From the UHGV virus genome UHGV-0258472: a stretch of 55,135 bases of DNA; one strand, 5' to 3'. Origin of the DNA: a virus. The translations under genes were made by a program, and so were the position numbers. Positions 2,874 through 41,455 of this stretch are shown here, piece after piece (positions within the stretch are counted from its first letter, which is position 1; each line of letters starts with the position of its first letter). Under the pieces are notes generated by a model, which searched no databases, was not told where the DNA came from, and worked only from the letters and a program-made list of their open reading frames with translations.

Positions 2874-3131
2874 CTATTCAGGTTTGCTACCTTCACGCGC
2901 ATGAAGAACAGCGATCTCACGGAAATCATGCACGATGCGATAAATATACAAGCCAGCGGCGTTATTGATATGGATTGCATAAGCGAAATAAACTTTATCG
3001 TCATCGCCAGTTATCGCCATTGCCACATCACCGCACGGTGCGCCGTGGAGTTGAACGCCGCAATAAATCTTCCCTTCTTCGAATCTATTGCGATCGCGCG
3101 TCTGCACTATCTCAAAATATAAATGCTTCAT
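2874..3131 (-). CDS. small protein, paralog family member
   Basis: Internal ATG at 3131 with SD aggggg; G-K-I-Y ... GDDDKVYF motif. Confidence 0.45.
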   Translation of the reverse strand: MKHLYFEIVQTRDRNRFEEGKIYCGVQLHGAPCGDVAMAITGDDDKVYFAYAIHINNAAGLYIYRIVHDFREIAVLHAREGSKPE

Positions 3132-3141
3132 GCTTGCCCCC

Positions 3142-3354
3142 TTAATAACGCACAAAACTAGCGGAAAAATCAGTGCCTGATATTTCGCCACCCCGATAAG
3201 TTGGCATAAATCCCCACACATCCCCACAATCATCAATCAATACAAGCGCCACGCCAACATCACTAATACCATTGCCATAAACGATGTGAACATCATAGAT
3301 TCGCCCAATAGTGAAAACGCTGTCATTGCTTGAATATGAGCATTTAACTTGCAT
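3142..3354 (-). CDS. small protein, paralog family member
   Basis: ATG at 3354 with SD aaggtgg; G-R-I-Y ... DDCGDVWGF motif. Confidence 0.45.
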   Translation of the reverse strand: MQVKCSYSSNDSVFTIGRIYDVHIVYGNGISDVGVALVLIDDCGDVWGFMPTYRGGEISGTDFSASFVRY

Positions 3355-3628
3355 TGTCAGCCACCTTTAAATAATTTTTCGTGTCAATATCTGCCGGATA
3401 CCTGGAAAATTGCGCCAGCCATTGTCCGGTAATGTTTTTCACCAGTGCATAATCAAGATCGCCGCAGTAGAATACCTGGTACATTGTCCCTTCGTTATCA
3501 TCCATAACAAAGACCATCGGATCAGTAGTCGCATTGCGCAGCCTGTGAATCGTGTAAGCCTGGCCAGTAGTGAATTTGTACTCGTTACACGTTGTGCGGC
3601 AAAACATCCGGTCAAAATAGCTTTCCAT
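3344..3628 (-). CDS. hypothetical protein
   Basis: ATG at 3628 overlaps upstream stop (ATGA). Confidence 0.4.
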   Translation of the reverse strand: MESYFDRMFCRTTCNEYKFTTGQAYTIHRLRNATTDPMVFVMDDNEGTMYQVFYCGDLDYALVKNITGQWLAQFSRYPADIDTKNYLKVADNAS

Positions 3629-3879
3629 CAAAAAATCCCCTTATAATCGACCGTGTATTTTGCTATCAGCTTCCATTCACAATAGCTTTCCATGTCGCGC
3701 GGTTGCCAGCCTTTCATGCCTACAGCACCACGCACGCCGTGGCGACGATAATTATCGTTATAGTCAGCTACGCACCACGGCTGAAGCACAAACATGTAAT
3801 TGGCCTCGTTAACCAGGATCGCCACCTGTTTTCCTGTTGCCTTATCTTTCGCCCGGAAATAACTTACCCTGATTTTCAT
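3628..3879 (-). CDS. hypothetical protein (83 aa)
   Basis: ATG at 3879 with SD gaggt. Confidence 0.4.
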   Translation of the reverse strand: MKIRVSYFRAKDKATGKQVAILVNEANYMFVLQPWCVADYNDNYRRHGVRGAVGMKGWQPRDMESYCEWKLIAKYTVDYKGIF

Positions 3880-4090
3880 TTTTAATTACCTCGATCAACA
3901 TTTCTTCTTCCAGGTTAGCCGGACGTTTACGGAATATCCCGGCAAAAACCAGATCATCGAGTAGGTCTTTACGCTTAAATAACCATTCCTTCATTATTAC
4001 CCCGTCATCGCTGCGATATACGACGCCGTTTTTCAAAAAATAAAAAGTGTGGGTATTTGTCTGAAGGTATAGATCTTCGTAAACGTCCAT
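3842..4090 (-). CDS. hypothetical protein (82 aa)
   Basis: ATG at 4090 with SD gaggg. Confidence 0.4.
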   Translation of the reverse strand: MDVYEDLYLQTNTHTFYFLKNGVVYRSDDGVIMKEWLFKRKDLLDDLVFAGIFRKRPANLEEEMLIEVIKNENQGKLFPGER

Positions 4091-4094
4091 GATA

Positions 4095-4322
4095 TTAACC
4101 CTCGACTACTTGCAGCCCGCGCCCCTTATCGCCCACGAAGTCGCCAAGACTGAACGTATACGACCACGCCGGATTGATGTAATGTTCATCAGCACCAGCG
4201 GCAATGAGATCAGCACCGTTAATCATGCAAGTAACATCATCGCTATGAACGACATTAACGACCTTACCAACAACCTGTTTCAATGACGGGTAGCCGTGAT
4301 CGTGCAAGAATTTAACTTTCAT
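4095..4322 (-). CDS. hypothetical protein
   Basis: ORF-track start is TTG; internal ATG at 4322 with purine-rich SD. Confidence 0.35.
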   Translation of the reverse strand: MKVKFLHDHGYPSLKQVVGKVVNVVHSDDVTCMINGADLIAAGADEHYINPAWSYTFSLGDFVGDKGRGLQVVEG

Positions 4323-7712: not shown

Positions 7713-8314
7713 GCTGCCTTTCTCCTTAAGGCGTCCAATTTAGCCTGATAGATGTTTATTAGCTCCTTACATTCTGCGATCGTCCATTTATGCGTATCAT
7801 TGTTGTTTTCCAGCGCCACCACCCTGGCGAGGCCAATTTTTCGAATCAGTGCCGGGCGATACCCTCCTATGTTCCCGTCTAATGTCTGGTTGCAGTGCCT
7901 ACATTGTTTATGGCAATTATCCTCGTTAAAGCGAAGATGTCCGGCGGCGGCTACCGTCCTGTAATGACCTGCATCCCACCCGCATTGCTCACCGTAGTAA
8001 GTCCCGCAAGATATACACGGCAAGCGCGCGTCACGTTCGCGAATATAGGCGTTAAATACATTTTGAACTTGTTTGATCCAATAACTACGCGGATTTAACT
8101 GTTTACGCTTCCGGTTGCGTTCTTCCCTCTGGCTATCACGGCGTTTCTTCCGCTCCATAGCCTTCATAGCCTTCTCACGGTCGCGGCATAGCTGGTCAAA
8201 CTTCAGTTCTTCCAGACATTCATCGCTGCACCACGTTTGATTATGATATTTAGGCTCAAAAAAAACGCCGCAGCACTTGCAACGGCGTCTTATGGGTTTT
8301 TTAGGGTTTTGCAT
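7709..8314 (-). CDS. ninG: NinG (Rap) recombination protein
   Basis: Translation ...CKCCGVFF...PRSYWIKQVQNVFNAYIRERD...PCISCGT...WDAGHYRT...LRFNE.N.HKQC..CN closely matches lambda NinG; start moved to ATG 8314 (SD ggggtgg) instead of ORF-track 8404. Confidence 0.85.
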   Translation of the reverse strand: MQNPKKPIRRRCKCCGVFFEPKYHNQTWCSDECLEELKFDQLCRDREKAMKAMERKKRRDSQREERNRKRKQLNPRSYWIKQVQNVFNAYIRERDARLPCISCGTYYGEQCGWDAGHYRTVAAAGHLRFNEDNCHKQCRHCNQTLDGNIGGYRPALIRKIGLARVVALENNNDTHKWTIAECKELINIYQAKLDALRRKAA

Positions 8315-8328
8315 AAAAACCACCCCGA

Positions 8329-8505
8329 TTATTTTTGATTCTCTGTTTCGTTCAGCCTTTCGGCGTGTCCGGCCCTTAGCCAATGTTCTAAGCATTCGTT
8401 GCACTCGTTACAGCCTCCTTTCTTCGTGCTGCATACATTGCACATTGCACGCATAACGCTTTCTCGTTCATAGTCGTCATGCCATTGGTAATTATCAAAA
8501 GGCAT
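8329..8505 (-). CDS. small Cys-rich protein (58 aa, CxxC ... CxxCxxC)
   Basis: ATG at 8505 with strong SD aaaggagag; not in ORF track (under 60 aa). Confidence 0.4.
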   Translation of the reverse strand: MPFDNYQWHDDYERESVMRAMCNVCSTKKGGCNECNECLEHWLRAGHAERLNETENQK

Positions 8506-8664
8506 AATGCTCTCTCCTTTTCAGGTGATTTCTACGCATTTCAGCGCTGCCGGATTTTTAAAGAGCATTTTGTTTGCTTGAAGTATACAAAATGGATACG
8601 TGCTAACAAGGTGTAAAGCGCCATTATGTGACATTCATCACACAATGACGCCATTTTGTAAACT

Positions 8665-9453
8665 TCAGTCCGGCAAAACGCGGTTGAGCGTAGTACGATT
8701 GATGGCCCGGTCGTTAGCCAGGAATACAGCACGGGCGAAGCCACGCGGCGTTAGTGAGCGGATCATCTTTGTTCGCTTTGATTTTCCGCCTAACTTCGCG
8801 TGCTGCTTACTGTCTTCCCATTCATCTGGCATCGGCACAGGACGGAATAGCGGCTGCTTAAATCCATTCCCGCACCAAATACAAGTTTTCTTCGTGTAGG
8901 CGTCGCGGTCGGCAATGTATTCCGGGAAAGCGGGATGTTTATCATCTTCCGGCAGGTAGCCACCGTAAGCGCAAGGATTGAAGATAAAATCCGGTTTACG
9001 CCATAACGTTGACAGCACGCCAACAGGATTTTCAACCATCCACGGCACGTTATACATGTTAGCCAGAGATTCAACCAACATTGCGTTTCTTGCCGCCTTA
9101 TTCTGAAAACAAGGATCTTTTCTGTATTTATCAACGAACCAACGAGCGCCGGACACAGCAAGATCATCACACGGAGGAAAGCCCAGGATAATGTCAGGAT
9201 CTGGATATACAGACAATTCAGGTGAGAACATTACCAGAAAATGGCTATCAATCCAGACGTTAACATATTCAATATTTGGATGAATTATTTTTACACCGTC
9301 ATAATCACCGTGATTAGCGCCGTCATAGTTGAAGCAATAACATTTATAACCAGCGTCCGCCCAATCTTTAACGGCGTACCCGCTGCCGTCGTACAGCGAC
9401 CATACCACCCAATTTCTAAGCCAATTATTTAACCAATGTTTAGCCCTGCTCAT
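8665..9453 (-). CDS. putative DNA (cytosine-5)-methyltransferase-like protein
   Basis: Motifs resembling C5-MTase motif I (LYDGSG), IV (GFPPCDD, PC-type) and VI (ENPVG); ATG at 9453. Confidence 0.5.
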   Translation of the reverse strand: MSRAKHWLNNWLRNWVVWSLYDGSGYAVKDWADAGYKCYCFNYDGANHGDYDGVKIIHPNIEYVNVWIDSHFLVMFSPELSVYPDPDIILGFPPCDDLAVSGARWFVDKYRKDPCFQNKAARNAMLVESLANMYNVPWMVENPVGVLSTLWRKPDFIFNPCAYGGYLPEDDKHPAFPEYIADRDAYTKKTCIWCGNGFKQPLFRPVPMPDEWEDSKQHAKLGGKSKRTKMIRSLTPRGFARAVFLANDRAINRTTLNRVLPD

Positions 9454-24848: not shown

Positions 24849-25066
24849 TGGATAAGATCGGGACAATCCTTATTAATCGTGAGCAAGTGCAAAAAATGTT
24901 AGGCGGACTTAGCAAGTCCGCATTTTTTAAGCTCGTTAAAAAATGGAAAGATGCGGGAACTCCTTTCCCTGAACCTGTTAAGGGGATGCCAGCATTAAAG
25001 CGCGGCGGATCTCTTTACCGCTATCAGGACGTTATTTCATTTTGTAAATCAATGGGCTTCATGTAG
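24848..25066 (+). CDS. putative excisionase / AlpA-like small DNA-binding protein
   Basis: Small basic protein convergent with integrase; size and position typical of Xis/AlpA-type regulators. Confidence 0.4.
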   Translation: MDKIGTILINREQVQKMLGGLSKSAFFKLVKKWKDAGTPFPEPVKGMPALKRGGSLYRYQDVISFCKSMGFM

Positions 25067-26223
25067 TAATCAGCCAGTTTATTCATCGCCTCTATTTGCT
25101 CCTTCACGTAATCATACTGATCATATATAGCCATCATTCCCGCCAGTTTATGACCTAAAACCTTTTCTGCTACGTGCGGCGCAATGCCAAGCGCTGAAAG
25201 GTTTGTCCTTACAGTGCGGCGCAAGTCGTGACACGACCACGGCTCGCCGCCCATCCTTAGCATCAAATCCCTTGCGGCTGTTTTCGGCACGCTCCTGTCT
25301 ACCGCTTCATCCCTTCCAGAAAGCACGGGAACGAAGATAAAATTAAAGCCGTGCAAATCCATAGCTTCACGCAATAAATCAACGCTAACGGCGGATAAAC
25401 CGCGTTTAAACTCGTTTCTGTTCTTACTCAATGCGCCCGGCACGGTCCACACACAGTTATCAAGATCGAAATGCTCGCGCCTTGCGTTTGTTAGTTCGCT
25501 TGTTCTGCATCCGGTGAATATAATCAGCTTCATCAATATCTGATTTAGCCGCGCCATTTTTGAACTGTCTATAATGCTGATTAGATGGTGAATCTCTTGT
25601 ATTGATAAGACGCGTTTCCTTTGTGCCGGGTTTTTGCCTACGTCTTTCACGCGTAGCAATGATATGTCGTCACGCTCCACGCGGCGGCGGCGCATGGCAT
25701 ATTTTATCACCGCCTTCATCCTGTTTAAGACTATCCCTGCCTGAACGGGCGCGCCACCATTAGCTACCTTTCTAAAAATACCCTCCCACATTATGGAGTC
25801 CATATCATCGACGATATAGCTACCGCATGGTCTGACAATGTGCTTACTTAGCATCGCCTCGACTTGCTTATAGTTGACCATGTTTCTTGCCTGCGGTGAT
25901 TCCATGTACTCCCTAACAATATCTTCAATCGTTGCCCGTGTCGTAACGCGGGAAAAGTTCATTCTTTTTACGATCGATGGATCTCGTCCTGAGTTTAAGA
26001 CTTCCTTATGCTCCGCCACCGCCGCGCGGGCTTCTTTGAGCGTTATTTCTCCGTAAGTGCCAATCTTCATCCGTCGCGGCTTGCCGTTGAATCGGTAGCG
26101 ATACTGGAAAGATATAACGCCGTGCGGGCTTATCCTGGCAGACAATCCGCCCGCGTCCGGGACTTCTTCCGGGCCGTCATATGGCTTGCCGTGGATGTTT
26201 CGTAATTTGGTATCTGTAAGCAT
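25024..26223 (-). CDS. int: tyrosine site-specific integrase
   Basis: C-terminal catalytic region with R ... HDLRRT ... Y; N-terminal arm-binding-like domain; start set at ATG 26223 (ORF-track 26292 is GTG). Confidence 0.8.
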   Translation of the reverse strand: MLTDTKLRNIHGKPYDGPEEVPDAGGLSARISPHGVISFQYRYRFNGKPRRMKIGTYGEITLKEARAAVAEHKEVLNSGRDPSIVKRMNFSRVTTRATIEDIVREYMESPQARNMVNYKQVEAMLSKHIVRPCGSYIVDDMDSIMWEGIFRKVANGGAPVQAGIVLNRMKAVIKYAMRRRRVERDDISLLRVKDVGKNPAQRKRVLSIQEIHHLISIIDSSKMARLNQILMKLIIFTGCRTSELTNARREHFDLDNCVWTVPGALSKNRNEFKRGLSAVSVDLLREAMDLHGFNFIFVPVLSGRDEAVDRSVPKTAARDLMLRMGGEPWSCHDLRRTVRTNLSALGIAPHVAEKVLGHKLAGMMAIYDQYDYVKEQIEAMNKLADYYMKPIDLQNEITS

Positions 26224-26227
26224 AAAT

Positions 26228-26479
26228 TTGGTCACTATTTGGTACACACATTTCACGCATGGATAGTAACACGATAGAAAACGATATGACACGATAGAAT
26301 AAATATTTCTTTTAAAATCAAGGTGAAACGGTGACGATGTGACACGATATGAAATGATAGAAATGGCGTTATCCGCTTATCTTTTGAATGGATAACTTAA
26401 TGAAAAATTCATTTGTATTCAATGTGTTATGTTTTGTTTTTGTTTTTTATTTATCATTTTGGTCACTATTTGGTACACA
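26228..26479. other. candidate attP region
   Basis: 21-bp direct repeat TTGGTCACTATTTGGTACACA at 26228-26248 and 26459-26479; ACACGATAGAA-like repeats between; inverted GTTATCC ... GGATAAC at 26368-26396; directly upstream of int. Confidence 0.4.
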
Positions 26480-26536: not shown

Positions 26537-29098
26537 TTATTCTTCGCTTCCGGTCAACTGCCTGACAAGCGCTTCAAGTTTAGTGATCCGCTCATCCATG
26601 AAGGCAATGTTAGCTCGTAAGCTGGCGTTTTCTTCCTCCAGTTCGGTGACGCGGTTATCTGTTTCGCGTGCAACCTGGACAAGTAAACCAGTCACAGCCG
26701 CGTAGTCAACATTGAGGTAACGCGTTTCTTCGCGTAGCTCGTTGCCGTCAGTGGTCGGGCCTTGTAACTCTTTACCGTAATGAGTAAACGATCCTACTGC
26801 TTCCGGTAGCGCCTCCATTACCTCCTGAGCGATAACGCCAGCGTAAGGCAGACCATTTTCCTTAAGCGTGTAGGTGTACCCGTTCATTTTACGGATAGCT
26901 TCAGTGGCATCACCTATAACCTGAATGTTGTCTTTCAAGTCGCGGTCAGATGATTGTATTACCGTTATGCAACTAACGGAACCTGGAATATTAAAATTAA
27001 CAGAATTGTCCGTGTTAAGCTGGCAATAAAAACCATATCCATTAGCAGCGCCGGTACTGGGGTCAGCAAATCCATACTCAAAAACCGATGGTCTTGAGTC
27101 CGATCCCCATAAATGTAAACGTGAGTTTACTTTTACGTTCTCTGATACACCAAGCGTCAATTTTCTTGTGAAATCATAAGAGTTAATGAACGATGAAACA
27201 AAATTCTGTGAGGCTGTCCATTTATTAGAATCGCTAAGCGTAGCCAGTTGGCGCCATCCTTTATCTACTCCGGCCTCAAAACTTCTGGCGAAGAATTTTG
27301 AATTTCGCCCGGCGAATTGGGTAGCGTAATTACCGCTAAATTGAGCATGGAATCCGCCAACAACCATTGTCCCATCGGGGCCGTTAATAGATCCAGCCAA
27401 CGGTTTAAACTTATTTACGTTATCTGAATGCTGACCATTCCAGTCGTTGCCAGTCTGTGTAAGTAGACCACCAGGAACGCTAAGAGTACCATCACCATTA
27501 AAATTAAAAAACATATGGTTTGATGCGGTCATGTCGCGAACAACAATTTGCGCGGCTTTTTCTGCTGCCCTGAACTCTGACTGATCAAGAGTCTGATTAG
27601 AAGCGGCATTGGTGCGCCTTGATATAAATGTCCTGTTGGTTACGTCCTCGCCATATGCAATAAATCCTTTAGTACAATTAATCGCACCTAAAACCGTGAA
27701 TGACGGCAGCGTAACGATAAACGGATCCGACGAATTCAATTTATTGGTGAGCGCAAAATTTGGTGAATATCCTTGTCTGAATATAGCGTTACTATAAAAA
27801 CCTGAACCGCCACCAGTAAAATCAAGAACGTTAAGAACGTTGTTTTCTGCGTTACCCTCTTCTGATGTGGATACGCCAAATTTGAATTTTACCCCGTTTG
27901 TTCCCAAAGAATAATCACCAGTCGGCACTACTACTTTTGCTTTATATCCCACCTGGATTTTAATTGGAAATGCTTTATTGCTTACATAAAAAGCTACATG
28001 TTGAGCGTAGTCTTTAGCTGATGCCTTAACGCAAAGTATAGCAACCTCGGTTGGCTCATATGCAGCATAGTACCCATACGCTATATTTTTGATGTCTGAC
28101 CAGCCACCGCATCTTACATATCCTGAAAACGTGTTGCTGTTCATTTCTGAAGCGGCACTACCGCCAACAGTTACAATTTCAACCGGACACGGAAAACTCC
28201 CTGCCCCGTTTGTTTCACCAGTGAACACGATTATAGGATAGTATTTCCCATCTTCCATGCCAGATGGTGCGCTTATGGTTATCGTTTTTGATAAACCACC
28301 TTCAGGGATCTGAAGATTTGTTTTTGCATCATCAAGCGACGTTGCACCAGTGCCGCCAGTAAGAATTGGAAGCGGTAGCCATTTACTAGCCTCTGAGTCG
28401 TAATAACCCCACGATCCTGAATCATAGACGGTAAGGAATTTATTTGCGTTTTGAGCGCATACGCGAGTTTCTCCTGTTCTTTGAACAAGCCTGTCTACTT
28501 CATTTTTTCTTGCGTGACGTGTCCAGTTAGCGCCTGATGTAGAAACCCATGTATACGTATAAAGTGATCGCGTAGCCCAACCAACAAATACGCCTGTATA
28601 TGAAGGCGTGCCGTCTCGTTGACAGATGAATCCACTTAAAAAGGATTCTCCAGCCGCTACAGCAGGAAAACCAGTGGCTGTTTCCTTTATGCGCAAAAAG
28701 CCAACGTAAGAAGACGGATCGCCTGATATATCAATGCAATCTCGCGGCGCTGGGCCTAAACCAATATTACTACCGTCTATTGCACTGGATATTTCGTCCT
28801 CTTTTTCCTGATAAAAACGAAGTGTTTCAGCTACGTCCTGAGCAAGACCATCAACTGAGATCGAGTCAGAAAGCAGAATACTGAATTTTGTCCCGGCAGC
28901 GATGGCAGGATTAGCCGCTGGCGTCACTGATAATTCAGTACCGCTCTTAATTTCTGTGATGGTAAAGATCTGGATAGGATTGCTAATGGCAATTAGCGTG
29001 CACCCTACACGGATGAGAGAAAGCGGTGCGGAAAAGTTTGTTCCCGTACCTGTAACAGTATTGCCGCTAATGGCAATTGTTCCCGTTGTATAAATCAT
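26537..29098 (-). CDS. side tail fiber / tailspike with C-terminal S74-type intramolecular chaperone domain
   Basis: 853 aa; C-terminal SDRDLKDNI ... NGYTYTLKENG ... GVIAQEV motif typical of self-cleaving chaperone domains; ATG 29098 with SD. Confidence 0.65.
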   Translation of the reverse strand: MIYTTGTIAISGNTVTGTGTNFSAPLSLIRVGCTLIAISNPIQIFTITEIKSGTELSVTPAANPAIAAGTKFSILLSDSISVDGLAQDVAETLRFYQEKEDEISSAIDGSNIGLGPAPRDCIDISGDPSSYVGFLRIKETATGFPAVAAGESFLSGFICQRDGTPSYTGVFVGWATRSLYTYTWVSTSGANWTRHARKNEVDRLVQRTGETRVCAQNANKFLTVYDSGSWGYYDSEASKWLPLPILTGGTGATSLDDAKTNLQIPEGGLSKTITISAPSGMEDGKYYPIIVFTGETNGAGSFPCPVEIVTVGGSAASEMNSNTFSGYVRCGGWSDIKNIAYGYYAAYEPTEVAILCVKASAKDYAQHVAFYVSNKAFPIKIQVGYKAKVVVPTGDYSLGTNGVKFKFGVSTSEEGNAENNVLNVLDFTGGGSGFYSNAIFRQGYSPNFALTNKLNSSDPFIVTLPSFTVLGAINCTKGFIAYGEDVTNRTFISRRTNAASNQTLDQSEFRAAEKAAQIVVRDMTASNHMFFNFNGDGTLSVPGGLLTQTGNDWNGQHSDNVNKFKPLAGSINGPDGTMVVGGFHAQFSGNYATQFAGRNSKFFARSFEAGVDKGWRQLATLSDSNKWTASQNFVSSFINSYDFTRKLTLGVSENVKVNSRLHLWGSDSRPSVFEYGFADPSTGAANGYGFYCQLNTDNSVNFNIPGSVSCITVIQSSDRDLKDNIQVIGDATEAIRKMNGYTYTLKENGLPYAGVIAQEVMEALPEAVGSFTHYGKELQGPTTDGNELREETRYLNVDYAAVTGLLVQVARETDNRVTELEEENASLRANIAFMDERITKLEALVRQLTGSEE

Positions 29099-29275
29099 CG
29101 CAATGACTCCATTATGTTAATTAACGGAATAATTCTACCATTTTGTGATCTATGTTACATTTTTGACTTATACAAAATGTATTTATTGATTTATATCAAT
29201 ATACGAAATGTGGTTTTGTCGGATATTTAAGCCACCGGATGAACCGGATGAGCTAACAAGAACGAGGATTAAAAA

Positions 29276-29524
29276 ATGAAAAACATGTTCAAAGTGGTTT
29301 TATTCGCTGCGGCTGTTGCTCTTACTGGTTGCGCTGTTGACAAAGAAGCTGCATTGCATAACCTGCCAAATAGCGGAGTGATTCCACAAGAAATCGTCTA
29401 TGATGCTAATGGTCATCTTGTATATGACACTGAAAAACTGCCATATACTGGTCAATGGTGTCATGAACTCGATCACAACATGCGCCGCATCGGTAGCCCG
29501 TCGAATTGTGTAGCTAACTACTAA
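29276..29524 (+). CDS. lipoprotein moron (signal peptide plus lipobox LTGC); candidate superinfection-exclusion lipoprotein
   Basis: MKNMFKVVLFAAAVALTGC signal/lipobox; antisense to flanking tail genes; own terminator; ATG 29276 with SD gagga. Confidence 0.6.
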   Translation: MKNMFKVVLFAAAVALTGCAVDKEAALHNLPNSGVIPQEIVYDANGHLVYDTEKLPYTGQWCHELDHNMRRIGSPSNCVANY

Positions 29525-29531
29525 AAGAAAA

Positions 29532-29548
29532 CCCCGCGCGAAGCGGGG
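29532..29548 (+). terminator. rho-independent terminator after lipoprotein gene
   Basis: ccccgcgcgaagcgggg hairpin followed by ttgttttttat. Confidence 0.55.
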
Positions 29549-29555
29549 TTGTTTT

Positions 29556-32500
29556 TTATCCTGAGAATGAACCAGAACCGCGCGACACAATGACGGTCGG
29601 TGAATTTATATATGCCCCCCTACTATTTTGAGCGGATACCCTAATTTTAACTGTAACGCTCTTGCTTGTTACTGCTGATGAATGCATAACAAGGCGCTCG
29701 TCGCCAGCCATCGACAGGCTTTTCTCTGAACTGCCGATGATTATCGTACAGCCACCAAAACCTTTAACGTTTGCCATAACGCAAATGTGTCTGCTGTGCG
29801 CTGCATTGGATGTGTCATTGTATGTAATTGTTTTTTCCAGTACGCCATCGGCTAACCTGCTGACGTCAGCTCCCGTATACATGTTCGCAACGTCACCTAT
29901 AAAGGTTTTAGCCTCAAGCTCGCCAGAGAATTTGCCTTTGTTGGCATGGATTTCCCCCCTTACAACAACGTTGTTAAATTCAGATGCGCCGTCTTTTGTT
30001 ATCCTCCAACCATTCGAACCAGCGACATAGTTTGATGATTTTATTTCATTAACAATTTTAGCCATAGTAATGGCTGCATCCGCAATTTTAGCTGTCCCTA
30101 TTGATGCGTTTTTAATAAATGCTTCTTTCACATACATTGCACCATTAGACACATAGAAAGGCGTTGTATATGTGCCGTTTGCTGCGGTCATTAATACGAA
30201 GCGATCAACAAGGAAAATACACTGCGATTGAACGTTAGTGCCGCTGCCAGTCAACCCAAGCGACATACCTGTCGCGTATTTCATGCCGTTGTTGTCGGTG
30301 GCAATCTTGATTGACCATGACGCATCAACATTACCTTTGAAGTCGGTTAACGCTTTCGATGTTGTCTCGATCGCCGTTGTGTTCCCGTTAACGGTAACTG
30401 TCAACTGATCAATTTTGGTTGATAATGCCTCGTCCGCCGTTGTCATGGTCTGCGACCATTCTGTGATGCTTGAGTTTACCGCTTCGAAAGATGCTGAGAT
30501 CTGGCTGAATTTTTCCGCGCTTGATGCTTCATGCGTAGAAAGTGCTGTGGACACTTCAGATACTTTAGAATTAATCGTACTGGTAAGCGATGAGTTAAGG
30601 CTGCTTATAGCGTCAGTGCGGGCCTGCGTCTCATCTGCAATAGCTTTGTCGATACGGGTCACATTGCTTGTAACCTTGTTATCAAGAGTACTAATGCTGG
30701 CGTTCACTCCGCTAATCGCTTGAGCGCTGGCGTTCGCCTCGTCAGCAATTGCCTGATCAAGACGGTTAACGCTGGCTTCAGTGTCGTTTTCTAGCGTCTT
30801 TATGCTTGCATTAACACTACTTATAGCTTCAGATCTTGCTTGCGTTTCAGTTGCGATCACTTTATCTAACCGTGATATTTCTCCTTTAATGTTTGAGTCC
30901 ATCGTGTTCATTTCTGCCGTGATGGTTTCAAGCGCTTCCGCTGTTGCCTGTTTTTCGTCAGTAATGACATTATCAATACGGTCAATTTGTGCTTTAGTTT
31001 CACTTTGTCCGCGTTTGAACTCCGCTGTGAGAGTGCGCCTTGTCTTTGTCTGAGACAATGTATTATTGATGAGAGCAAGCGAAGCGTTTTGTAGGCTTGC
31101 CCTTGCCATAGCGAGATCACCATCAAGTTTTTCGCTTTTTGCTATTAACTGATCATCGGCTTCTGCTCTTGCGCTTGATTCGTCAGCTATTGCCTGATCA
31201 AGTCTAGAAACGTTGCTTGTAACCTTGTTATCAAGATTTGTCATGCTCGCATTGACATTGCTGATAGCCTGTGCGCGTGCGCTGGCCTCATCTGCGATAG
31301 CTTGATCAAGACGATTAACACTGGCATCTGTTTTACTATCAAGTGCGTCAATATTTGCGCTAACTTCACTGATGGCGTCAGCCCTTGCCTGGCTCTCATT
31401 GGCAATGGCAGTATCTACGCGCGCAATCTCACCTTTGATGTTTTTATCCATCGTGTCGATTTCGGCGGTAATTGTCTCCATTGCCTCCGCTCTTGCTTCT
31501 TTTTCACTGACAATCACGTTATCAATGCGATCTATTTGCGCCTTAGTTTCATAATCCACGTTTTTGATCTGAGCTGTCAGCGTTCTTCTGGTATTAGTTT
31601 GAGCAAGCGAATTATTAATAAGAGCAAGCGATGCGTTTTGTAGGCTTGCTTTTGTCTGTGCCAGTTCATTACCGACATTTTCGTTTGATACCTCTAACGA
31701 GTCGATTCTTACCTCATGTTTACCTATTTCATCGGAGTTTTCTTCGACTTTCTTGTAAAGGTCTTCAGTGTCTTTTTTAAGGGCGCTTGTATCAGCTTTA
31801 ATTGATTCTGTTTCTGTAATTAAATTATCAGTATCAGTTCTTAAGCCTTCAGTTATTCCGCTTAGGGTATCAGTAGCTGTTTTAAGGTCTTGAGTTGCGC
31901 TTTCGATAACGCCAGTGCGATCGCCAAGATCCTTAATATCACTTACCATTTCCTTAAATTGTTCTGAATTCATAACGTCTTTGGTGACGTAATCGCTAAT
32001 TTCATCAAAATTTTCTGTCGGCTTACCTGATGCTTCAACGAAGTCTGACACGCCAAAAGCATTACGTGTACGCACATAAACGTAATAAGTATGGCCCGTG
32101 TTCATTCCGCCGAACGTCCACTGATACCCGCGCCCGGTAAACTGTGCCGCCGTGGTTATTTTTGCCGGATCTGTGATCTGGTTTTCCCCTGCATAGTAGA
32201 ATTCATACGCTGTATCAGTGGTTAGCGTTGTCTTACTTATCGGGTACACGGTAGCCTGAAATACACCTGGCACCCAGTTAACACCTATTGGCGCGGCTGG
32301 TGCACCGATAACAAGATCGACTATGCTTTCAGCGCCTTTCATGCCAGTGTCATTTCTTCCGCGAACTCCTAACGAATATGAACCAGCATCAATACCATAA
32401 AAATCATAACTATATTTCGTAGTTTCATAGCTTTTAACCACCGCACCATCTGCATTATATATGCGGATCTCAAAGGTCATTCGATGCGTTGTTGTCTGTG

Positions 32501-34418
32501 TTTCCCATGTGGCGCGGCATTGAATTGTTTCAGATCCAATGTTTACCACCTTCAGATTTTCAATGTTCGGCACGCGGAAATGGTTAAGCGTGTCATTGTT
32601 GACTTCAAATATTGCGCCTTCATCGACTATCGCTTGTTTGTTAGGGTCGTGCTGTGCGGCCTCGATGGTGTATACGCTGTTATTTTCGGTTTCGGCTACG
32701 CTGGTGATCCTACACAAAACAGGTTTTGCCGCTTCAGTGGATACAGCGAAAACAGTCCCGTTACGTATCCATGCCGGGGCCGCCGCTAAGGTGATCTCAT
32801 TTCCATTTACCCAGGTGATCTGGTGTTTCTTAAATTTGCCATCACTATCAAGCAAACTAATGGTATCGCCTGCGGTGATGTATTCCGAATCAACCTTATC
32901 GACCGTTATCACCTTGCCATTGTTCGCCACGATACGACCGCCTAAACGAGCGCCTGCGCGGTTATTGTCGAGGATCTCGATAATATCCCCTGGCGTAAAG
33001 TGAATCGCGTCGCGTGCCATTTTGAACGTGAATTTTGACGGCTCGCGTTTTGCTGTTTCTATCAGCCATTTACCCGCGCGGTACGCTTGCCCGCGTGACG
33101 TGCACCCGAACGCCTCTAACGTGGTTTCGTTGTAACCATCACGGGCGATCAGTTCATCATCTGCTACATACTCTTTTGATTGCTCCCAGCCGTTTTCCGG
33201 GTCAGTCCATGATACGATCACGGCGTTGTAGCATTCTGCGCGGGCGATACTTGAACGAGTAAACGCGCCATCAACGACATTTGCATTTGTAATGGTGGCG
33301 ATCGGGTCTTGTGGTGCATCAATCATCACGGTAAGGCGTTGCCCGTCCCATAACGCGATACCCCTGAACATCCCGGCGATATTGTCCAGTAAGTCGCGTG
33401 CGCTCATTTGCTCTGTGATGTAAGCGTTAAGCGTCATGCGAGGCTCAAGGCCACCGTAGCCATCATCAACCAACTGGTCGCAGTATTGAGAAAGCGTATA
33501 CAGTGCGCCGTCATCAACGTCAATATAGCCAGCATGACGCGCAAGGCCGAAACGCTCGTTTTTAACCAGGTAACGGAAGATCCACGCAGGGTTATTAGTG
33601 TAAGCCTGTTTCAAGCCGCCAAGCCATAAACCGGAATAAGTGCGCGTTTCCGGGTCGTAGTTATCAGGCACGTCGACAATAAGACCACGCAGGTGATAAG
33701 TGCGTGTAGGCGTGTCGGTGTACTGGTCGTGGTCAATTACCGCGCCTGCTACAGCGGTGTGAGGATAAGATAAATTATCGTCGATTATTTCGCTGTAGCT
33801 ACTCCATCGCGTATCATTTCGCAATAGATCGCTTGCGCTATCAGCAGTTACGCGGCGAACGCGAATATCAAACGGTTTTTCATCCGGCGCGTTGATAATA
33901 TGCGCTTCAAGATATTCTCCGCTGATCTTACCTGGGCCTATAGTGACGTCTTTAACAAGCGCCCACGTAGAAGAAGACGAAGGCTTCACGTCAATCATCA
34001 TCATAACAGATGTATTATGTTGATTGCTTTGCTCGTCAGATTGTACAAGTGAATCGACGCCGATATTCAGGCGCACGCGCGTAACGTTAGGATCTGATAC
34101 AGTCCTGATTATTGGGGTATCGTGTTTCACCTGAGCGTTAACAATAACGGTTGATTCGATGGCGCTAAAACCGTTAATAGGTGATTGATCTAGCGTACCA
34201 TTGCGCCACGCCACGCTAACGCCAGGGATACTGGTATTGCCGTTCGCGTCAGTTACAGGGGTGTCATTAAGCATAATGCTGTTTAATGGCGCTTTCGTAT
34301 TCACAGGTCCATAAATCGGACCTTCTGAAATAATATCCAGTACACGATAAAACTGTTTATGATACAGGTTATCATTTATCAATGTTGGTGTTTTTGCTTT
34401 GCCGCCGCCGCTACTCAT
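29556..34418 (-). CDS. host-specificity / central tail fiber protein (lambda J-like) with extended repetitive coiled-coil C-terminal region
   Basis: 1620 aa; N-terminal region J-like; follows I/K/L homologs; ATG 34418 with SD aggag. Confidence 0.8.
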   Translation of the reverse strand: MSSGGGKAKTPTLINDNLYHKQFYRVLDIISEGPIYGPVNTKAPLNSIMLNDTPVTDANGNTSIPGVSVAWRNGTLDQSPINGFSAIESTVIVNAQVKHDTPIIRTVSDPNVTRVRLNIGVDSLVQSDEQSNQHNTSVMMMIDVKPSSSSTWALVKDVTIGPGKISGEYLEAHIINAPDEKPFDIRVRRVTADSASDLLRNDTRWSSYSEIIDDNLSYPHTAVAGAVIDHDQYTDTPTRTYHLRGLIVDVPDNYDPETRTYSGLWLGGLKQAYTNNPAWIFRYLVKNERFGLARHAGYIDVDDGALYTLSQYCDQLVDDGYGGLEPRMTLNAYITEQMSARDLLDNIAGMFRGIALWDGQRLTVMIDAPQDPIATITNANVVDGAFTRSSIARAECYNAVIVSWTDPENGWEQSKEYVADDELIARDGYNETTLEAFGCTSRGQAYRAGKWLIETAKREPSKFTFKMARDAIHFTPGDIIEILDNNRAGARLGGRIVANNGKVITVDKVDSEYITAGDTISLLDSDGKFKKHQITWVNGNEITLAAAPAWIRNGTVFAVSTEAAKPVLCRITSVAETENNSVYTIEAAQHDPNKQAIVDEGAIFEVNNDTLNHFRVPNIENLKVVNIGSETIQCRATWETQTTTHRMTFEIRIYNADGAVVKSYETTKYSYDFYGIDAGSYSLGVRGRNDTGMKGAESIVDLVIGAPAAPIGVNWVPGVFQATVYPISKTTLTTDTAYEFYYAGENQITDPAKITTAAQFTGRGYQWTFGGMNTGHTYYVYVRTRNAFGVSDFVEASGKPTENFDEISDYVTKDVMNSEQFKEMVSDIKDLGDRTGVIESATQDLKTATDTLSGITEGLRTDTDNLITETESIKADTSALKKDTEDLYKKVEENSDEIGKHEVRIDSLEVSNENVGNELAQTKASLQNASLALINNSLAQTNTRRTLTAQIKNVDYETKAQIDRIDNVIVSEKEARAEAMETITAEIDTMDKNIKGEIARVDTAIANESQARADAISEVSANIDALDSKTDASVNRLDQAIADEASARAQAISNVNASMTNLDNKVTSNVSRLDQAIADESSARAEADDQLIAKSEKLDGDLAMARASLQNASLALINNTLSQTKTRRTLTAEFKRGQSETKAQIDRIDNVITDEKQATAEALETITAEMNTMDSNIKGEISRLDKVIATETQARSEAISSVNASIKTLENDTEASVNRLDQAIADEANASAQAISGVNASISTLDNKVTSNVTRIDKAIADETQARTDAISSLNSSLTSTINSKVSEVSTALSTHEASSAEKFSQISASFEAVNSSITEWSQTMTTADEALSTKIDQLTVTVNGNTTAIETTSKALTDFKGNVDASWSIKIATDNNGMKYATGMSLGLTGSGTNVQSQCIFLVDRFVLMTAANGTYTTPFYVSNGAMYVKEAFIKNASIGTAKIADAAITMAKIVNEIKSSNYVAGSNGWRITKDGASEFNNVVVRGEIHANKGKFSGELEAKTFIGDVANMYTGADVSRLADGVLEKTITYNDTSNAAHSRHICVMANVKGFGGCTIIIGSSEKSLSMAGDERLVMHSSAVTSKSVTVKIRVSAQNSRGAYINSPTVIVSRGSGSFSG

Positions 34419-37905: not shown

Positions 37906-38072
37906 AAAACCCCCTATAAGTTACATTTTGTATATACCTTTACGCGATTCTACGCGAAAAATGAGATCTTCATCACAATGATTATAGCCAGTTTTCAAAA
38001 TGGCTTCACTTTGGAAATCACATATTGTATACAGAAAGCAAATAAGAAAGACGTTGCACAAAGGGGGATGTT

Positions 38073-41206: not shown

Positions 41207-41455
41207 AATTTAACCTCATACAAAATGTGATCTATGTCTCTATTTTATACAAAATGGCTTCATTTCAACGAATACATTTTGTATAAAGAAGGTGAAGGAT
41301 GAGAGAGATAAAAGAAGGTCGAAGGATATAAAGGATTAAGACTTGAAGCACAGCTAACCGATGGAACGAGGGAGGCGAAAACCCCTAAAACTAAGGAAAC
41401 AGCAAAGGGATTTAAAAGGCCGGATTAACCGGAGGAAGCAAAAGAGGATAAGAAA

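What the first reader, a model, noticed from the sequence alone, without database searches (positions are those of the whole stretch)
29099..29555. Antisense lipoprotein moron between side tail fiber and J-like gene
A plus-strand gene (29276-29524) encodes an 82-aa protein with a signal peptide and lipobox (LTGC). It is embedded antisense between two minus-strand tail genes, has its own upstream region carrying the CATTTTGTATA-type motifs and its own terminator (29532-29548), and is AT-richer than its neighbours. Small outer-membrane lipoproteins placed next to tail fiber genes are known superinfection-exclusion factors that block the phage's own receptor (Cor of phi80/N15/HK022, Llp of T5).
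Basis: partly seen in the sequence, partly recalled or inferred. Interest (0 to 1): 0.5.

Follow-up and report, generated by a model that had tools for sequence, protein, structure and literature searches.

The report
Phage lipoprotein that blocks LamB receptor
This small phage gene encodes an outer-membrane lipoprotein that very likely stops other LamB-using phages (including lambda) from infecting the cell; a 94%-identical protein from a sister phage was shown to do this in 2025, so the gene is real but already known.

Summary
29276-29524 (+) encodes an 82-aa prolipoprotein (lipobox LTGC, Cys19, Ala at +2). It converges on the J tail-tip gene, shares a bidirectional terminator with it, and diverges from the side tail fibre gene. 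It is under strong purifying selection (dN/dS 0.04-0.13).

The window is an mEpimmI-group temperate coliphage. The protein is 93.9% identical to Lpp010 (mEp010 gp116). Lpp010 expressed from a plasmid excludes the LamB-dependent phages mEp010, mEp044, mEp554 and lambda (PMC11893012).

Homologues sit in the same slot in lytic Seuratvirus, Nonagvirus and Dhillonvirus phages. All eight carriers with a tested receptor use LamB. The lipoprotein accompanies at least three different J receptor-binding ends, so it tracks the receptor.

It is not homologous to Cor, Llp or Rtp45, although cor occupies the same slot in a sister prophage. It therefore works like Cor and Llp without being a member of either family.

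How a lipoprotein disables a porin is still unknown.

One new lead: no sigma-70 promoter precedes the gene, but a perfect FNR box lies 22 nt upstream of a -10-like hexamer (class II geometry). This is untested.

The parts
29276..29524 (+). Prolipoprotein gene (82 aa). Signal peptide codons 29276-29329, lipobox L16-T17-G18-C19 at 29321-29332, mature 63-aa protein from Cys19 (29330-29521), stop 29522-29524. Orthologue of mEp010 gp116 (Lpp010, 'type-C' exclusion lipoprotein).
   Evidence: phrog_12984, E 4e-27; 93.9% to mEp010, 97.6% to MagusPhagus; family alignment; lipobox rule, dN/dS 0.04-0.13.
29264..29268 (+). Shine-Dalgarno GAGGA, 7 nt before the ATG.
   Evidence: Read from the sequence. Conserved in all type-C loci.
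29186..29199 (.). TTGATTTATATCAA, an exact match to the FNR consensus TTGAT-N4-ATCAA. Candidate activator site centred 41.5 bp upstream of the predicted transcription start (about 29234).
   Evidence: It is the only exact match in the window (0.14 expected). The left half-site is invariant and the right half is A/GTCAA in 10 related loci, including two cor alleles. It lies at -90 from the start codon in 13 of 13 mEpimmI-type IMG/VR loci with an intact start. Function is inferred, not shown.
29222..29227 (+). -10-like hexamer GATATT, 22 nt after the FNR-like box, with no -35 match.
   Evidence: Read from the sequence. GATAYT is kept at the same 22-nt distance in the cor alleles although the intervening sequence is unrelated. 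The simple sigma-70 scan found no plus-strand promoter.
29144..29159 (.). CRP-consensus-like palindrome TGTGATCTATGTTACA (one mismatch to TGTGA-N6-TCACA). It is centred 82.5 bp upstream of the predicted lipoprotein start site and overlaps the fibre promoter region.
   Evidence: 8 such sites in the window against 1.4 expected. The right half is degenerate in mEp010-type loci. Role unknown.
29139..29210 (.). Three copies of the window-wide motif CATTTTGT(ATA): 29139-29146 (+), 29169-29179 (-), 29200-29210 (-, one mismatch).
29132..29140 (-). Extended -10 element TGGTAGAAT for the divergent side tail fibre gene.
   Evidence: Read from the reverse complement. Invariant in 9 of the 10 aligned loci; the M15 cor allele has one change in the hexamer. 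Inferred promoter.
29530..29550 (.). Bidirectional intrinsic terminator shared by the lipoprotein gene and the convergent J gene.
   Evidence: Annotated as a terminator in mEp010 and mEp013. The same 29-35 nt gap to J is seen in 29 of 31 IMG/VR loci.
29559..29897 (-). Last 113 aa of J (from GDVANMYTG to GSGSFSG): 'type 1' receptor-binding end, predicted to bind LamB.
   Evidence: Identity is 90% to CSP1C, 78% to mEp013, 72% to mEp010 and 60% to KurtStettler. mEp010, mEp013 and KurtStettler are experimentally LamB-dependent.
29556..34418 (-). J-like tail tip protein, 1620 aa.
26537..29098 (-). Side tail fibre with C-terminal S74 intramolecular chaperone domain.

Best explanation
The gene encodes a small outer-membrane lipoprotein that makes the cell refractory to phages using the maltoporin LamB as terminal receptor.

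Proposed sequence of events:
- The precursor is exported and lipidated at Cys19, and its signal peptide is removed by signal peptidase II.
- The 63-residue mature part probably carries a C62-C78 disulfide. It binds LamB from the periplasmic side and alters or occludes the surface that phage J proteins recognise.
- The resident phage's relatives, lambda and lytic LamB phages then cannot adsorb productively.

The likely benefit is protection of the lysogen or infected cell from superinfection. A second likely benefit is protection of released progeny from being wasted on LamB in debris.

What is shown and what is inferred:
- Shown for a 94%-identical protein: plasmid expression excludes LamB phages.
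- Shown here: the gene is real, its lipoprotein features are conserved, and it belongs to a J-end/lipoprotein cassette that tracks LamB use.
- Inferred: lipidation, localisation, direct LamB binding, and the step that is blocked.
For: (1) Orthology to a tested protein. The window protein is 93.9% identical to mEp010 gp116 in the same slot of a phage of the same group. Lpp010 expressed from Ptac excluded mEp010, mEp044, mEp554 and lambda, all LamB-dependent (PMC11893012).

(2) Receptor tracking. All eight carriers of this family with a tested receptor use LamB: mEp010/013/044/554 and BASEL Bas21-24. Among the MZ501 (BASEL) records, only Bas21-24 are among the 44 tblastn hits, even at E<=1; the FhuA- and LptD-dependent Bas14-18 and Bas25 are not, and neither is lambda.

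(3) The lipoprotein accompanies different J ends. Type 1 is found in the window, mEp010/013 and KurtStettler. Type 2 is found in MagusPhagus, CAjan, GottfriedDienst, WildeMaa and SeppeHuegi. A third type is found in Salmonella. Lpp010 also excludes lambda, whose J end is unrelated. This points to action on the receptor rather than on a particular phage protein.

(4) Lipoprotein hallmarks and two mature-domain cysteines are conserved across the family. The +2 residue is never Asp.

(5) The slot is the exclusion-gene slot. A sister prophage in E. coli UMNK88 has cor there, and mEp021 has its tested type-A exclusion lipoprotein there.

(6) Precedents exist for periplasmic lipoproteins that disable outer-membrane phage receptors: Llp-FhuA (PMC9586334) and Rtp45-LptD (PMC12685063).
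Against: - This exact protein has not been tested. It differs from Lpp010 at four mature positions (E39D, I40V, A44G, N45S), all in the family's most variable segment.
- Lpp010 did not exclude mEp013, which is LamB-dependent and encodes an identical mature lipoprotein. The J end in the window is closer to mEp013 (78%) than to mEp010 (72%). Self-exclusion by this phage therefore cannot be assumed.
- The published assay was a spot test with plasmid expression. No adsorption, binding or localisation data exist.
- LamB has no plug domain or known allostery, so the Llp mechanism cannot simply be transferred (PMC9586334).
- AlphaFold models of the protein were of low confidence (pLDDT 58 and 54).
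- No recognisable sigma-70 promoter precedes the gene, so when it is expressed is unknown.
Confidence: 0.78

Rival explanations
1. The lipoprotein acts after adsorption. Phages still bind LamB, but tail-tube passage or DNA ejection across the periplasm is blocked, for example by obstructing the periplasmic mouth of LamB or the route to the inner-membrane entry factors.
For: The published assays are spot tests that cannot separate adsorption from injection. Exclusion of phages with unrelated J ends fits a block at a common downstream step as well as it fits receptor masking. The mEpimmI authors themselves list interference with DNA ejection as an option.
Against: The escape of mEp013, which differs mainly in its J protein, points to the receptor-recognition step. 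The structurally resolved lipoprotein precedents, Llp and Rtp45, both prevent binding of the receptor-binding protein.
Confidence: 0.12
2. The lipoprotein is flipped to the cell surface and masks LamB sterically from outside, as the surface lipoprotein TraT does.
For: van den Berg et al. raised this possibility for non-TonB-dependent receptors because LamB and LptD lack known allostery.
Against: For LptD the exclusion lipoprotein turned out to be periplasmic (PMC12685063). Nothing in the sequence indicates surface sorting. The family keeps the same lipoprotein in E. coli and Salmonella phages while the J ends differ. That fits the conserved periplasmic face better than the variable surface loops. 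This last point is an inference.
Confidence: 0.07
3. The gene has a host-directed function unrelated to phage exclusion, such as serum resistance like lambda Bor or modulation of maltodextrin uptake. Exclusion would then be a side effect of overexpression.
For: Lysogenic-conversion lipoproteins such as Bor exist (own knowledge). The only functional data come from plasmid expression.
Against: There is no similarity to Bor or any Pfam, NCBIfam or PADLOC family. Strictly lytic Seuratvirus phages carry the gene with a strong sigma-70 promoter, and a host-fitness factor makes no sense for them. The gene always sits next to the receptor-binding end of J.
Confidence: 0.03

Closest known systems
Lpp010 (mEp010 gp116), 'type-C' exclusion lipoprotein of mEpimmI phages (PMC11893012); PHROG phrog_12984
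   Same: 93.9% identity over all 82 residues. Same lipobox, same slot (convergent with J, divergent from the tail fibre), same terminator, same upstream region, same phage group.
   Different: Five substitutions: M4V in the signal peptide, and E39D, I40V, A44G, N45S in the mature protein. The J receptor-binding end next to it is only 72% identical to that of mEp010.
Cor (phi80, N15, HK022, T1): FhuA-directed exclusion lipoprotein
   Same: Small outer-membrane lipoprotein of about 80 aa encoded next to tail-tip genes. In the sister prophage of E. coli UMNK88, cor occupies exactly this slot and shares the upstream region up to about 29200.
   Different: No sequence relationship beyond the signal peptide (hhalign probability 9.8%; PHROG Cor E 0.078 over residues 4-25 only). 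Cor goes with FhuA-dependent phages; this family goes with LamB.
Llp of phage T5 (FhuA-Llp complex, PMC9586334)
   Same: Small lipoprotein encoded beside the receptor-binding gene that protects infected cells and progeny. Llp has an intramolecular disulphide, and this family has two conserved mature cysteines. The lytic Seuratvirus homologues have their own sigma-70 promoter.
   Different: No sequence similarity. Llp works through reverse allostery via the FhuA plug, which LamB lacks.
Rtp45 and bas18_0026: LptD-directed exclusion lipoproteins of small siphophages (PMC12685063)
   Same: Same cassette logic downstream of gpJ in Dhillonvirus and Queuovirinae phages. The target is an outer-membrane protein that is not TonB-dependent. 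Rtp45 binds at the periplasmic interface and shifts extracellular loops.
   Different: No sequence similarity. Different receptor. No separate receptor-binding gene here; the J C-terminus itself varies.
svsR sRNA of prophage NC-SV (PMC12803456)
   Same: A prophage-encoded way of taking LamB out of play against competing phages.
   Different: It is an RNA that represses lamB expression, not a protein acting on LamB.

Membership tests
mEpimmI type-C Lpp / phrog_12984 | Full-length sequence similarity to Lpp010 and family profile | tested here: met
   93.9% identity to mEp010 gp116. phrog_12984 E 4e-27 over residues 7-82. All invariant family columns are present.
mEpimmI type-C Lpp / phrog_12984 | Lipoprotein signal peptide with lipobox and outer-membrane sorting residue | tested here: met
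   LTGC with Cys19, two Lys in the n-region, +2 Ala. The rule passes in 23 of 25 members. Actual lipidation is not testable here.
mEpimmI type-C Lpp / phrog_12984 | Position: convergent with the 3' end of J, sharing a terminator, next to the side fibre gene | tested here: met
   29 of 31 IMG/VR loci have a long convergent ORF 29-35 nt downstream.
mEpimmI type-C Lpp / phrog_12984 | Excludes LamB-dependent phages when expressed | not testable with these tools
   Shown for Lpp010 only (PMC11893012).
mEpimmI type-C Lpp / phrog_12984 | Carried by phages whose terminal receptor is LamB | tested here: inconclusive
   The window phage's receptor is not known. Its J end is of the type found in LamB-dependent mEp010, mEp013 and KurtStettler (60-78% identity). 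All eight carriers with tested receptors use LamB.
Cor family (phage exclusion lipoprotein Cor) | Sequence homology of the mature domain | tested here: not met
   hhalign of the family profile against UMNK88 Cor aligns residues 1-22 only, probability 9.8%. phrog_1119 E 0.078, signal peptide only. No NCBIfam Cor hit.
Cor family (phage exclusion lipoprotein Cor) | Association with FhuA-dependent phages | tested here: not met
   Carriers with known receptors use LamB. The FhuA-dependent BASEL phages Bas15-17 lack the family.
Llp (T5) / Rtp45 exclusion lipoproteins | Sequence or fold similarity to the solved proteins | tested here: not met
   phmmer and profile hmmsearch against all PDB chains found nothing relevant at E<=10. 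The fold could not be compared because the models were poor (pLDDT 58 and 54).
Lambda Bor / Iss lipoproteins | Pfam Bor-family domain | tested here: not met
   No Pfam hit at E<=10.
Moron (Hendrix sense) | Autonomous unit with own promoter and terminator, distinct base composition, expressed from the prophage | tested here: inconclusive
   A terminator is present but shared with J. No sigma-70 promoter was found; only an FNR-type candidate. The ORF's GC content is like its neighbours. Expression is not testable. The gene also occurs in lytic phages.

The most novel reading that the evidence does not exclude
This concerns the temperate mEpimmI phages. There the exclusion-lipoprotein slot, whether filled by this LamB-directed gene or by cor, would be driven by a host-activator-dependent promoter. 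The architecture is an FNR site at -41.5, possibly with a CRP-like site at -82.5, similar to the E. coli ansB promoter arrangement as I recall it. The prophage would then block its receptor mainly under anaerobic, catabolite-derepressed gut conditions, which are also the conditions under which LamB is made. In addition, the lipoprotein would disable a plug-less porin from the periplasm by a mechanism unlike Llp-FhuA, for example by entering the pore lumen, which would also shut maltodextrin uptake.
Probability: 0.25. Interest if true: 0.6.

Novelty: already known. Interest (0 to 1): 0.3.

Why it matters
The gene adds one more member to a small, recently characterised family of LamB-directed exclusion lipoproteins. 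The comparative results here sharpen what is known about that family:
- The family tracks LamB across temperate mEpimmI phages and lytic Seuratvirus, Nonagvirus and Dhillonvirus phages.
- It does so regardless of which J receptor-binding end is present.
- It is unrelated to Cor, Llp and Rtp45.
- It occupies an exchangeable slot where cor or a type-A lipoprotein can sit instead.

This makes it a compact system for an open question raised in the T5 work (PMC9586334): how can a periplasmic lipoprotein disable a receptor that has no plug and no known allostery? It is also relevant to phage therapy and phage-host prediction, because a prophage with this gene should protect its host from many LamB-dependent phages. 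The possible FNR-dependent promoter would, if confirmed, be an example of environmental control of superinfection exclusion.

Tried and rejected
- Pfam, NCBIfam and PADLOC scans of the protein gave nothing.
- PDB sequence searches with the single sequence and with the family profile gave nothing relevant.
- An exhaustive HMM search of 1.84 billion representatives found only three true clusters and no bridge to Cor or Llp. The fourth hit, P0030, is a 4467-aa repeat protein matching a short DANG...GTW motif and is probably a chance resemblance.
- Two AlphaFold2 runs, on the full-length and the mature protein with the family alignment, gave pLDDT 58 and 54. No fold search was run because the matches would be meaningless.
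- The sigma-70 scan found no plus-strand promoter. Manual candidates (TTGACT at 29163, TGTTACATT at 29153) were rejected because they lack a partner hexamer or are not conserved in mEp010 and mEp013.
- The 38-aa ORF 29114-29230, annotated by phanotate in mEp010 and MagusPhagus, was rejected as a gene. It lies across the conserved regulatory spacer and its annotated counterparts differ in length (38-42 aa).
- The idea that the upstream motifs are operators of the phage CI repressor was rejected. The immunity region carries different palindromes (CTTGCA..TGCAAG).

Full report
**Observation.** The ORF at 29276..29524 on the plus strand exists as described. It encodes 82 aa, MKNMFKVVLFAAAVALTGC|AVDKEAALHNLPNSGVIPQEIVYDANGHLVYDTEKLPYTGQWCHELDHNMRRIGSPSNCVANY. 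The N-terminus has the three parts of a bacterial lipoprotein signal peptide: two lysines, a ten-residue hydrophobic core, and the lipobox L-T-G-C with Cys19. Residue +2 is Ala. By the established +2 sorting rule (own knowledge) this predicts delivery to the outer membrane. A PROSITE-style lipobox rule is satisfied by the window protein and by 23 of 25 family members, and none has Asp at +2.

The gene is flanked by two minus-strand genes. One is a side tail fibre at 26537..29098 (853 aa, Peptidase_S74 chaperone domain). The other is a 1620-aa J-like tail tip protein at 29556..34418 (FNIII-A_GpJ, Phage-tail_3, Ig_J, Ig_J_second, Phage_Tail_Tip). The lipoprotein gene and J converge on a GC-rich hairpin at 29530-29550. 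The hairpin has U-tracts on both strands, with free energies of -19.7 and -15.4 kcal/mol. The terminator is therefore real but bidirectional and shared.

CATTTTGTATA occurs 18 times in the window at one mismatch or fewer, against 2.0 expected. Two copies plus a related CATTTTGT lie in the 177-bp spacer upstream of the gene.

The AT-richness claim holds only for that spacer (31% GC). The ORF itself is 43.4% GC, much like the fibre gene (44.5%) and the 3' end of J (43.2%).

The ORF is a real gene. Against four orthologues it shows 14-21 nucleotide differences but only 2-6 amino-acid changes, giving dN/dS of 0.04-0.13.

**What the window is.** A 24-kb stretch around the locus matches Escherichia phage MagusPhagus (91% identity over 85% of the query) and the Mexican coliphages mEp044, mEp554, mEp010, mEp021, mEp013 and mEp515. 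These are the 'mEpimmI' phages, which are Nus-dependent, non-lambdoid, temperate siphoviruses of the human gut (PMC11893012). An integrase lies just beyond the fibre gene at 25024..26292.

**What the gene is.** The protein hits no Pfam, NCBIfam or PADLOC family. It matches PHROG phrog_12984 'lipoprotein' at E 4e-27. tblastn against phage genomes finds 44 records:
- MagusPhagus: 97.6% identity.
- mEp010: 93.9%.
- mEp554: 93.9%.
- mEp013: 92.7%.
- mEp044: 91.5%.
- Seuratvirus, Nonagvirus (9g) and Dhillonvirus phages, and an Enterobacter phage: 59-77% over the conserved C-terminal 52 residues.

The mEp010 orthologue is gp116, called Lpp010 or the 'type-C lipoprotein' in PMC11893012. When expressed from Ptac on a low-copy plasmid it abolished spot-plating of mEp010, mEp044, mEp554 and lambda. 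All of these require LamB. A different lipoprotein from the same slot of mEp021 (type A) excluded the OmpA-dependent mEp021 and mEp515.

**The family tracks LamB, not a particular phage protein.** The convergent J/lipoprotein/fibre arrangement is conserved in the lytic phages CAjan, KurtStettler, GottfriedDienst, WildeMaa, SeppeHuegi, CSP1C and EP23. It is also conserved in a Salmonella contig and in 29 of 31 IMG/VR loci.

BASEL table S5 gives LamB as the terminal receptor of Bas21-24. It gives LptD or FhuA for Bas14-18 and Bas25. Only Bas21-24 appear among the 44 hits, even at E<=1. Together with the four mEp phages, all eight carriers with a tested receptor use LamB.

The J C-termini next to the lipoprotein fall into at least three sequence types:
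- Type 1 (...VSAQN..GSGSFSG): the window, mEp010, mEp013, KurtStettler and CSP1C.
- Type 2 (...KEEYTN..TRGTGSWS): MagusPhagus, CAjan, EP23, GottfriedDienst, WildeMaa and SeppeHuegi.
- Type 3: the Salmonella locus.

Types 1 and 2 both include experimentally LamB-dependent phages. Within the mEpimmI group, lipoproteins more than 90% identical pair with either type. Lpp010 also excludes lambda, whose J end aligns with these only weakly and only upstream of the terminal domain. The simplest reading is that the lipoprotein acts on LamB itself.

The last 113 residues of J in the window are 90% identical to CSP1C, 78% to mEp013, 72% to mEp010 and 60% to KurtStettler. I therefore predict that this phage uses LamB.

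At nucleotide level, CSP1 and CSP1C share about 86% identity with the window only across 29423-29903. That stretch covers the 3' 100 nt of the lipoprotein gene, the terminator and the J end. The lipoprotein C-terminus ...CVANY is shared with CSP1C but not with other Seuratviruses. The J end and the exclusion gene therefore move together as a cassette between temperate and lytic phages.

**Relation to Cor, Llp and Rtp45.** The slot is the same. In the mEpimmI-type prophage of E. coli UMNK88, the antisense gene between J and the fibre is cor, preceded by two small ORFs that may be a separate receptor-binding module (my reading of their position; not examined). In mEp021 the slot holds the type-A lipoprotein gp81 plus the virion protein gp80.

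The protein is not homologous to any of these. A profile-profile comparison of the 25-member family alignment with Cor aligns only the signal peptide (probability 9.8%). The PHROG Cor profile matches residues 4-25 only, at E 0.078. Neither the sequence nor the family profile finds Llp, Rtp45 or anything relevant among all PDB chains at E<=10.

The family is small. It has 27 clusters at 90% identity among 5.8 billion proteins, and three clusters at 50% identity among 1.84 billion representatives, with no remote relatives. Its invariant features are the lipobox Cys, PNSGVxP, DTEKLPxTGQWC and RRIGSPSNC..Y. The two mature cysteines (C62, C78) are probably disulfide-bonded. Residues 38-46 are the most variable segment, and all four mature-domain differences from Lpp010 lie there.

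Two AlphaFold2 runs gave low-confidence models (pLDDT 58 and 54). No fold comparison was attempted.

**Mechanism.** By analogy with Llp-FhuA (PMC9586334) and Rtp45-LptD (PMC12685063), I propose that the mature lipoprotein is anchored in the inner leaflet of the outer membrane. There it would bind LamB at its periplasmic side and change or occlude the surface recognised by J.

This step is inferred. The published data are spot assays only. LamB has no plug and no known allostery, a point raised explicitly as an open question in PMC9586334, which already noted that LamB phages such as Bas23 'likely do have SE lipoproteins'. A post-adsorption block and a surface-exposed mask remain possible.

One published oddity matters here. 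Lpp010 did not exclude mEp013, although mEp013 needs LamB and encodes the same mature lipoprotein. The J end in the window is closer to that of mEp013 than to that of mEp010. This phage may therefore escape its own lipoprotein, which would then serve mainly against other LamB phages.

**Regulation (new, untested).** The lytic Seuratvirus homologues have a near-consensus sigma-70 promoter, TTGACT-16-TATATT. This fits early expression after infection, as I recall is described for T5 llp.

The window and its temperate relatives have no such promoter on the plus strand. Instead the spacer holds TTGATTTATATCAA at 29186-29199. This is an exact FNR consensus and the only one in the window (0.14 expected). 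It is followed after 22 nt by GATATT at 29222-29227. That places the box at -41.5 from a start site near 29234, which is the geometry of class II FNR-activated promoters (own knowledge).

In ten related loci the left half-site is invariant and the right half is A/GTCAA. In the two cor alleles the sequence between box and hexamer is unrelated, yet GATACT sits at the same 22-nt distance. All 13 mEpimmI-type IMG/VR loci with an intact start have the box at -90 from the ATG.

A CRP-consensus-like site (TGTGATCTATGTTACA, 29144-29159) would then lie at -82.5, but its right half is degenerate in mEp010-type phages.

The divergent fibre gene has an extended -10 element (TGGTAGAAT, reverse complement of 29132-29140) that is invariant in 9 of the 10 aligned loci. 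This suggests it need not depend on read-through of the J terminator across the antisense lipoprotein gene.

These are pattern-based inferences. I rate FNR dependence at roughly one in three.

**Verdict.** The finding is correct and well interpreted, but a 94%-identical protein from the same phage group was characterised in 2025, so the gene is already known. What this analysis adds is the identification of LamB as the target, the demonstration that the family follows the receptor across phage lineages and J-end types, the clear non-membership in Cor, Llp and Rtp45, and a testable promoter hypothesis.

Noticed in passing
window-wide; clusters at 8566-8662, 12208, 15626, 16306, 19938, 21076, 25038, 29139-29210, 37924-38031, 41217-41285, 44975: The motif CATTTTGTATA (core ACAAAATG) is about ten-fold over-represented: 18 against 2.0 expected, and 23 against 2.3 for the core. 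It lies mostly in short intergenic spacers 10-70 nt upstream of start codons, in both orientations, including inside the tail operon. Its function is unknown. It is not the CI operator, because the immunity region has different palindromes.
   Followed up: partly
window 8627, 12224, 16064, 17102, 29144, 36365, 37962, 38626 (and 41228): CRP-consensus-like palindromes TGTGA-N6-TCACA (mostly TGTGATCT-NN-ATCACA) occur 8 times against 1.4 expected. They often abut the ACAAAATG motif. They could be host CRP sites or sites for a phage regulator controlling internal promoters.
   Followed up: partly
window 29423-29903: This is the only stretch of the 20000-44000 query shared at nucleotide level (about 86%) with the lytic phages CSP1 and CSP1C. 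It covers the 3' 100 nt of the lipoprotein gene, the terminator and the J receptor-binding end. One recombination breakpoint therefore lies inside the lipoprotein gene.
   Followed up: partly
L012 (E. coli UMNK88 prophage) 2943-4122; L014 (mEp021) 7742-8895: The same slot holds other cassettes in sister phages. UMNK88 has cor plus two small ORFs downstream of J. mEp021 has the type-A lipoprotein gp81 plus the virion protein gp80. The upstream spacer is shared up to about window 29200 (cor) or about 29182 (type A).
   Followed up: partly
L050, L051, L016, L017 (protein P0025): A 72-73 aa family variant has no canonical lipobox. Its N-terminus (...LLCTNAFA|NTNEP) looks like a signal peptidase I site. 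It sits among small ORFs and is not next to a J gene. It may be a soluble periplasmic version in another phage type.
   Followed up: no
L035, L036 (IMG/VR mEpimmI-type loci): The lipoprotein reading frame is intact, but the usual ATG start appears to be replaced by an Ile codon. This may reflect an alternative start or an inactivated allele.
   Followed up: no
window 29234-29251: A perfect tandem 9-nt repeat ACCGGATGA x2 lies at the predicted 5' end of the lipoprotein transcript. It also forms a CCGG..CCGG mini-hairpin. Its significance is unknown.
   Followed up: no
window 29116-29125: TGTTAATTAA in the fibre gene leader matches the ArcA-box consensus as I recall it. It is invariant in all ten aligned loci. 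It was not tested against chance.
   Followed up: no
window 29556-34418 (J, residues about 947-1230): J is unusually long (1620 aa) and contains internal repeats of about 100-150 residues (self-hits). The mEpimmI paper also notes length-variable repeats in this part of J.
   Followed up: no
protein P0030 (4467 aa, metagenomic): A giant repeat protein matches the lipoprotein profile nine times at 'DANGDITSVTVPGEGTW' (E 2e-5). This is probably a chance resemblance to the DANGHLVYDTEKLPYTGQW segment.
   Followed up: no
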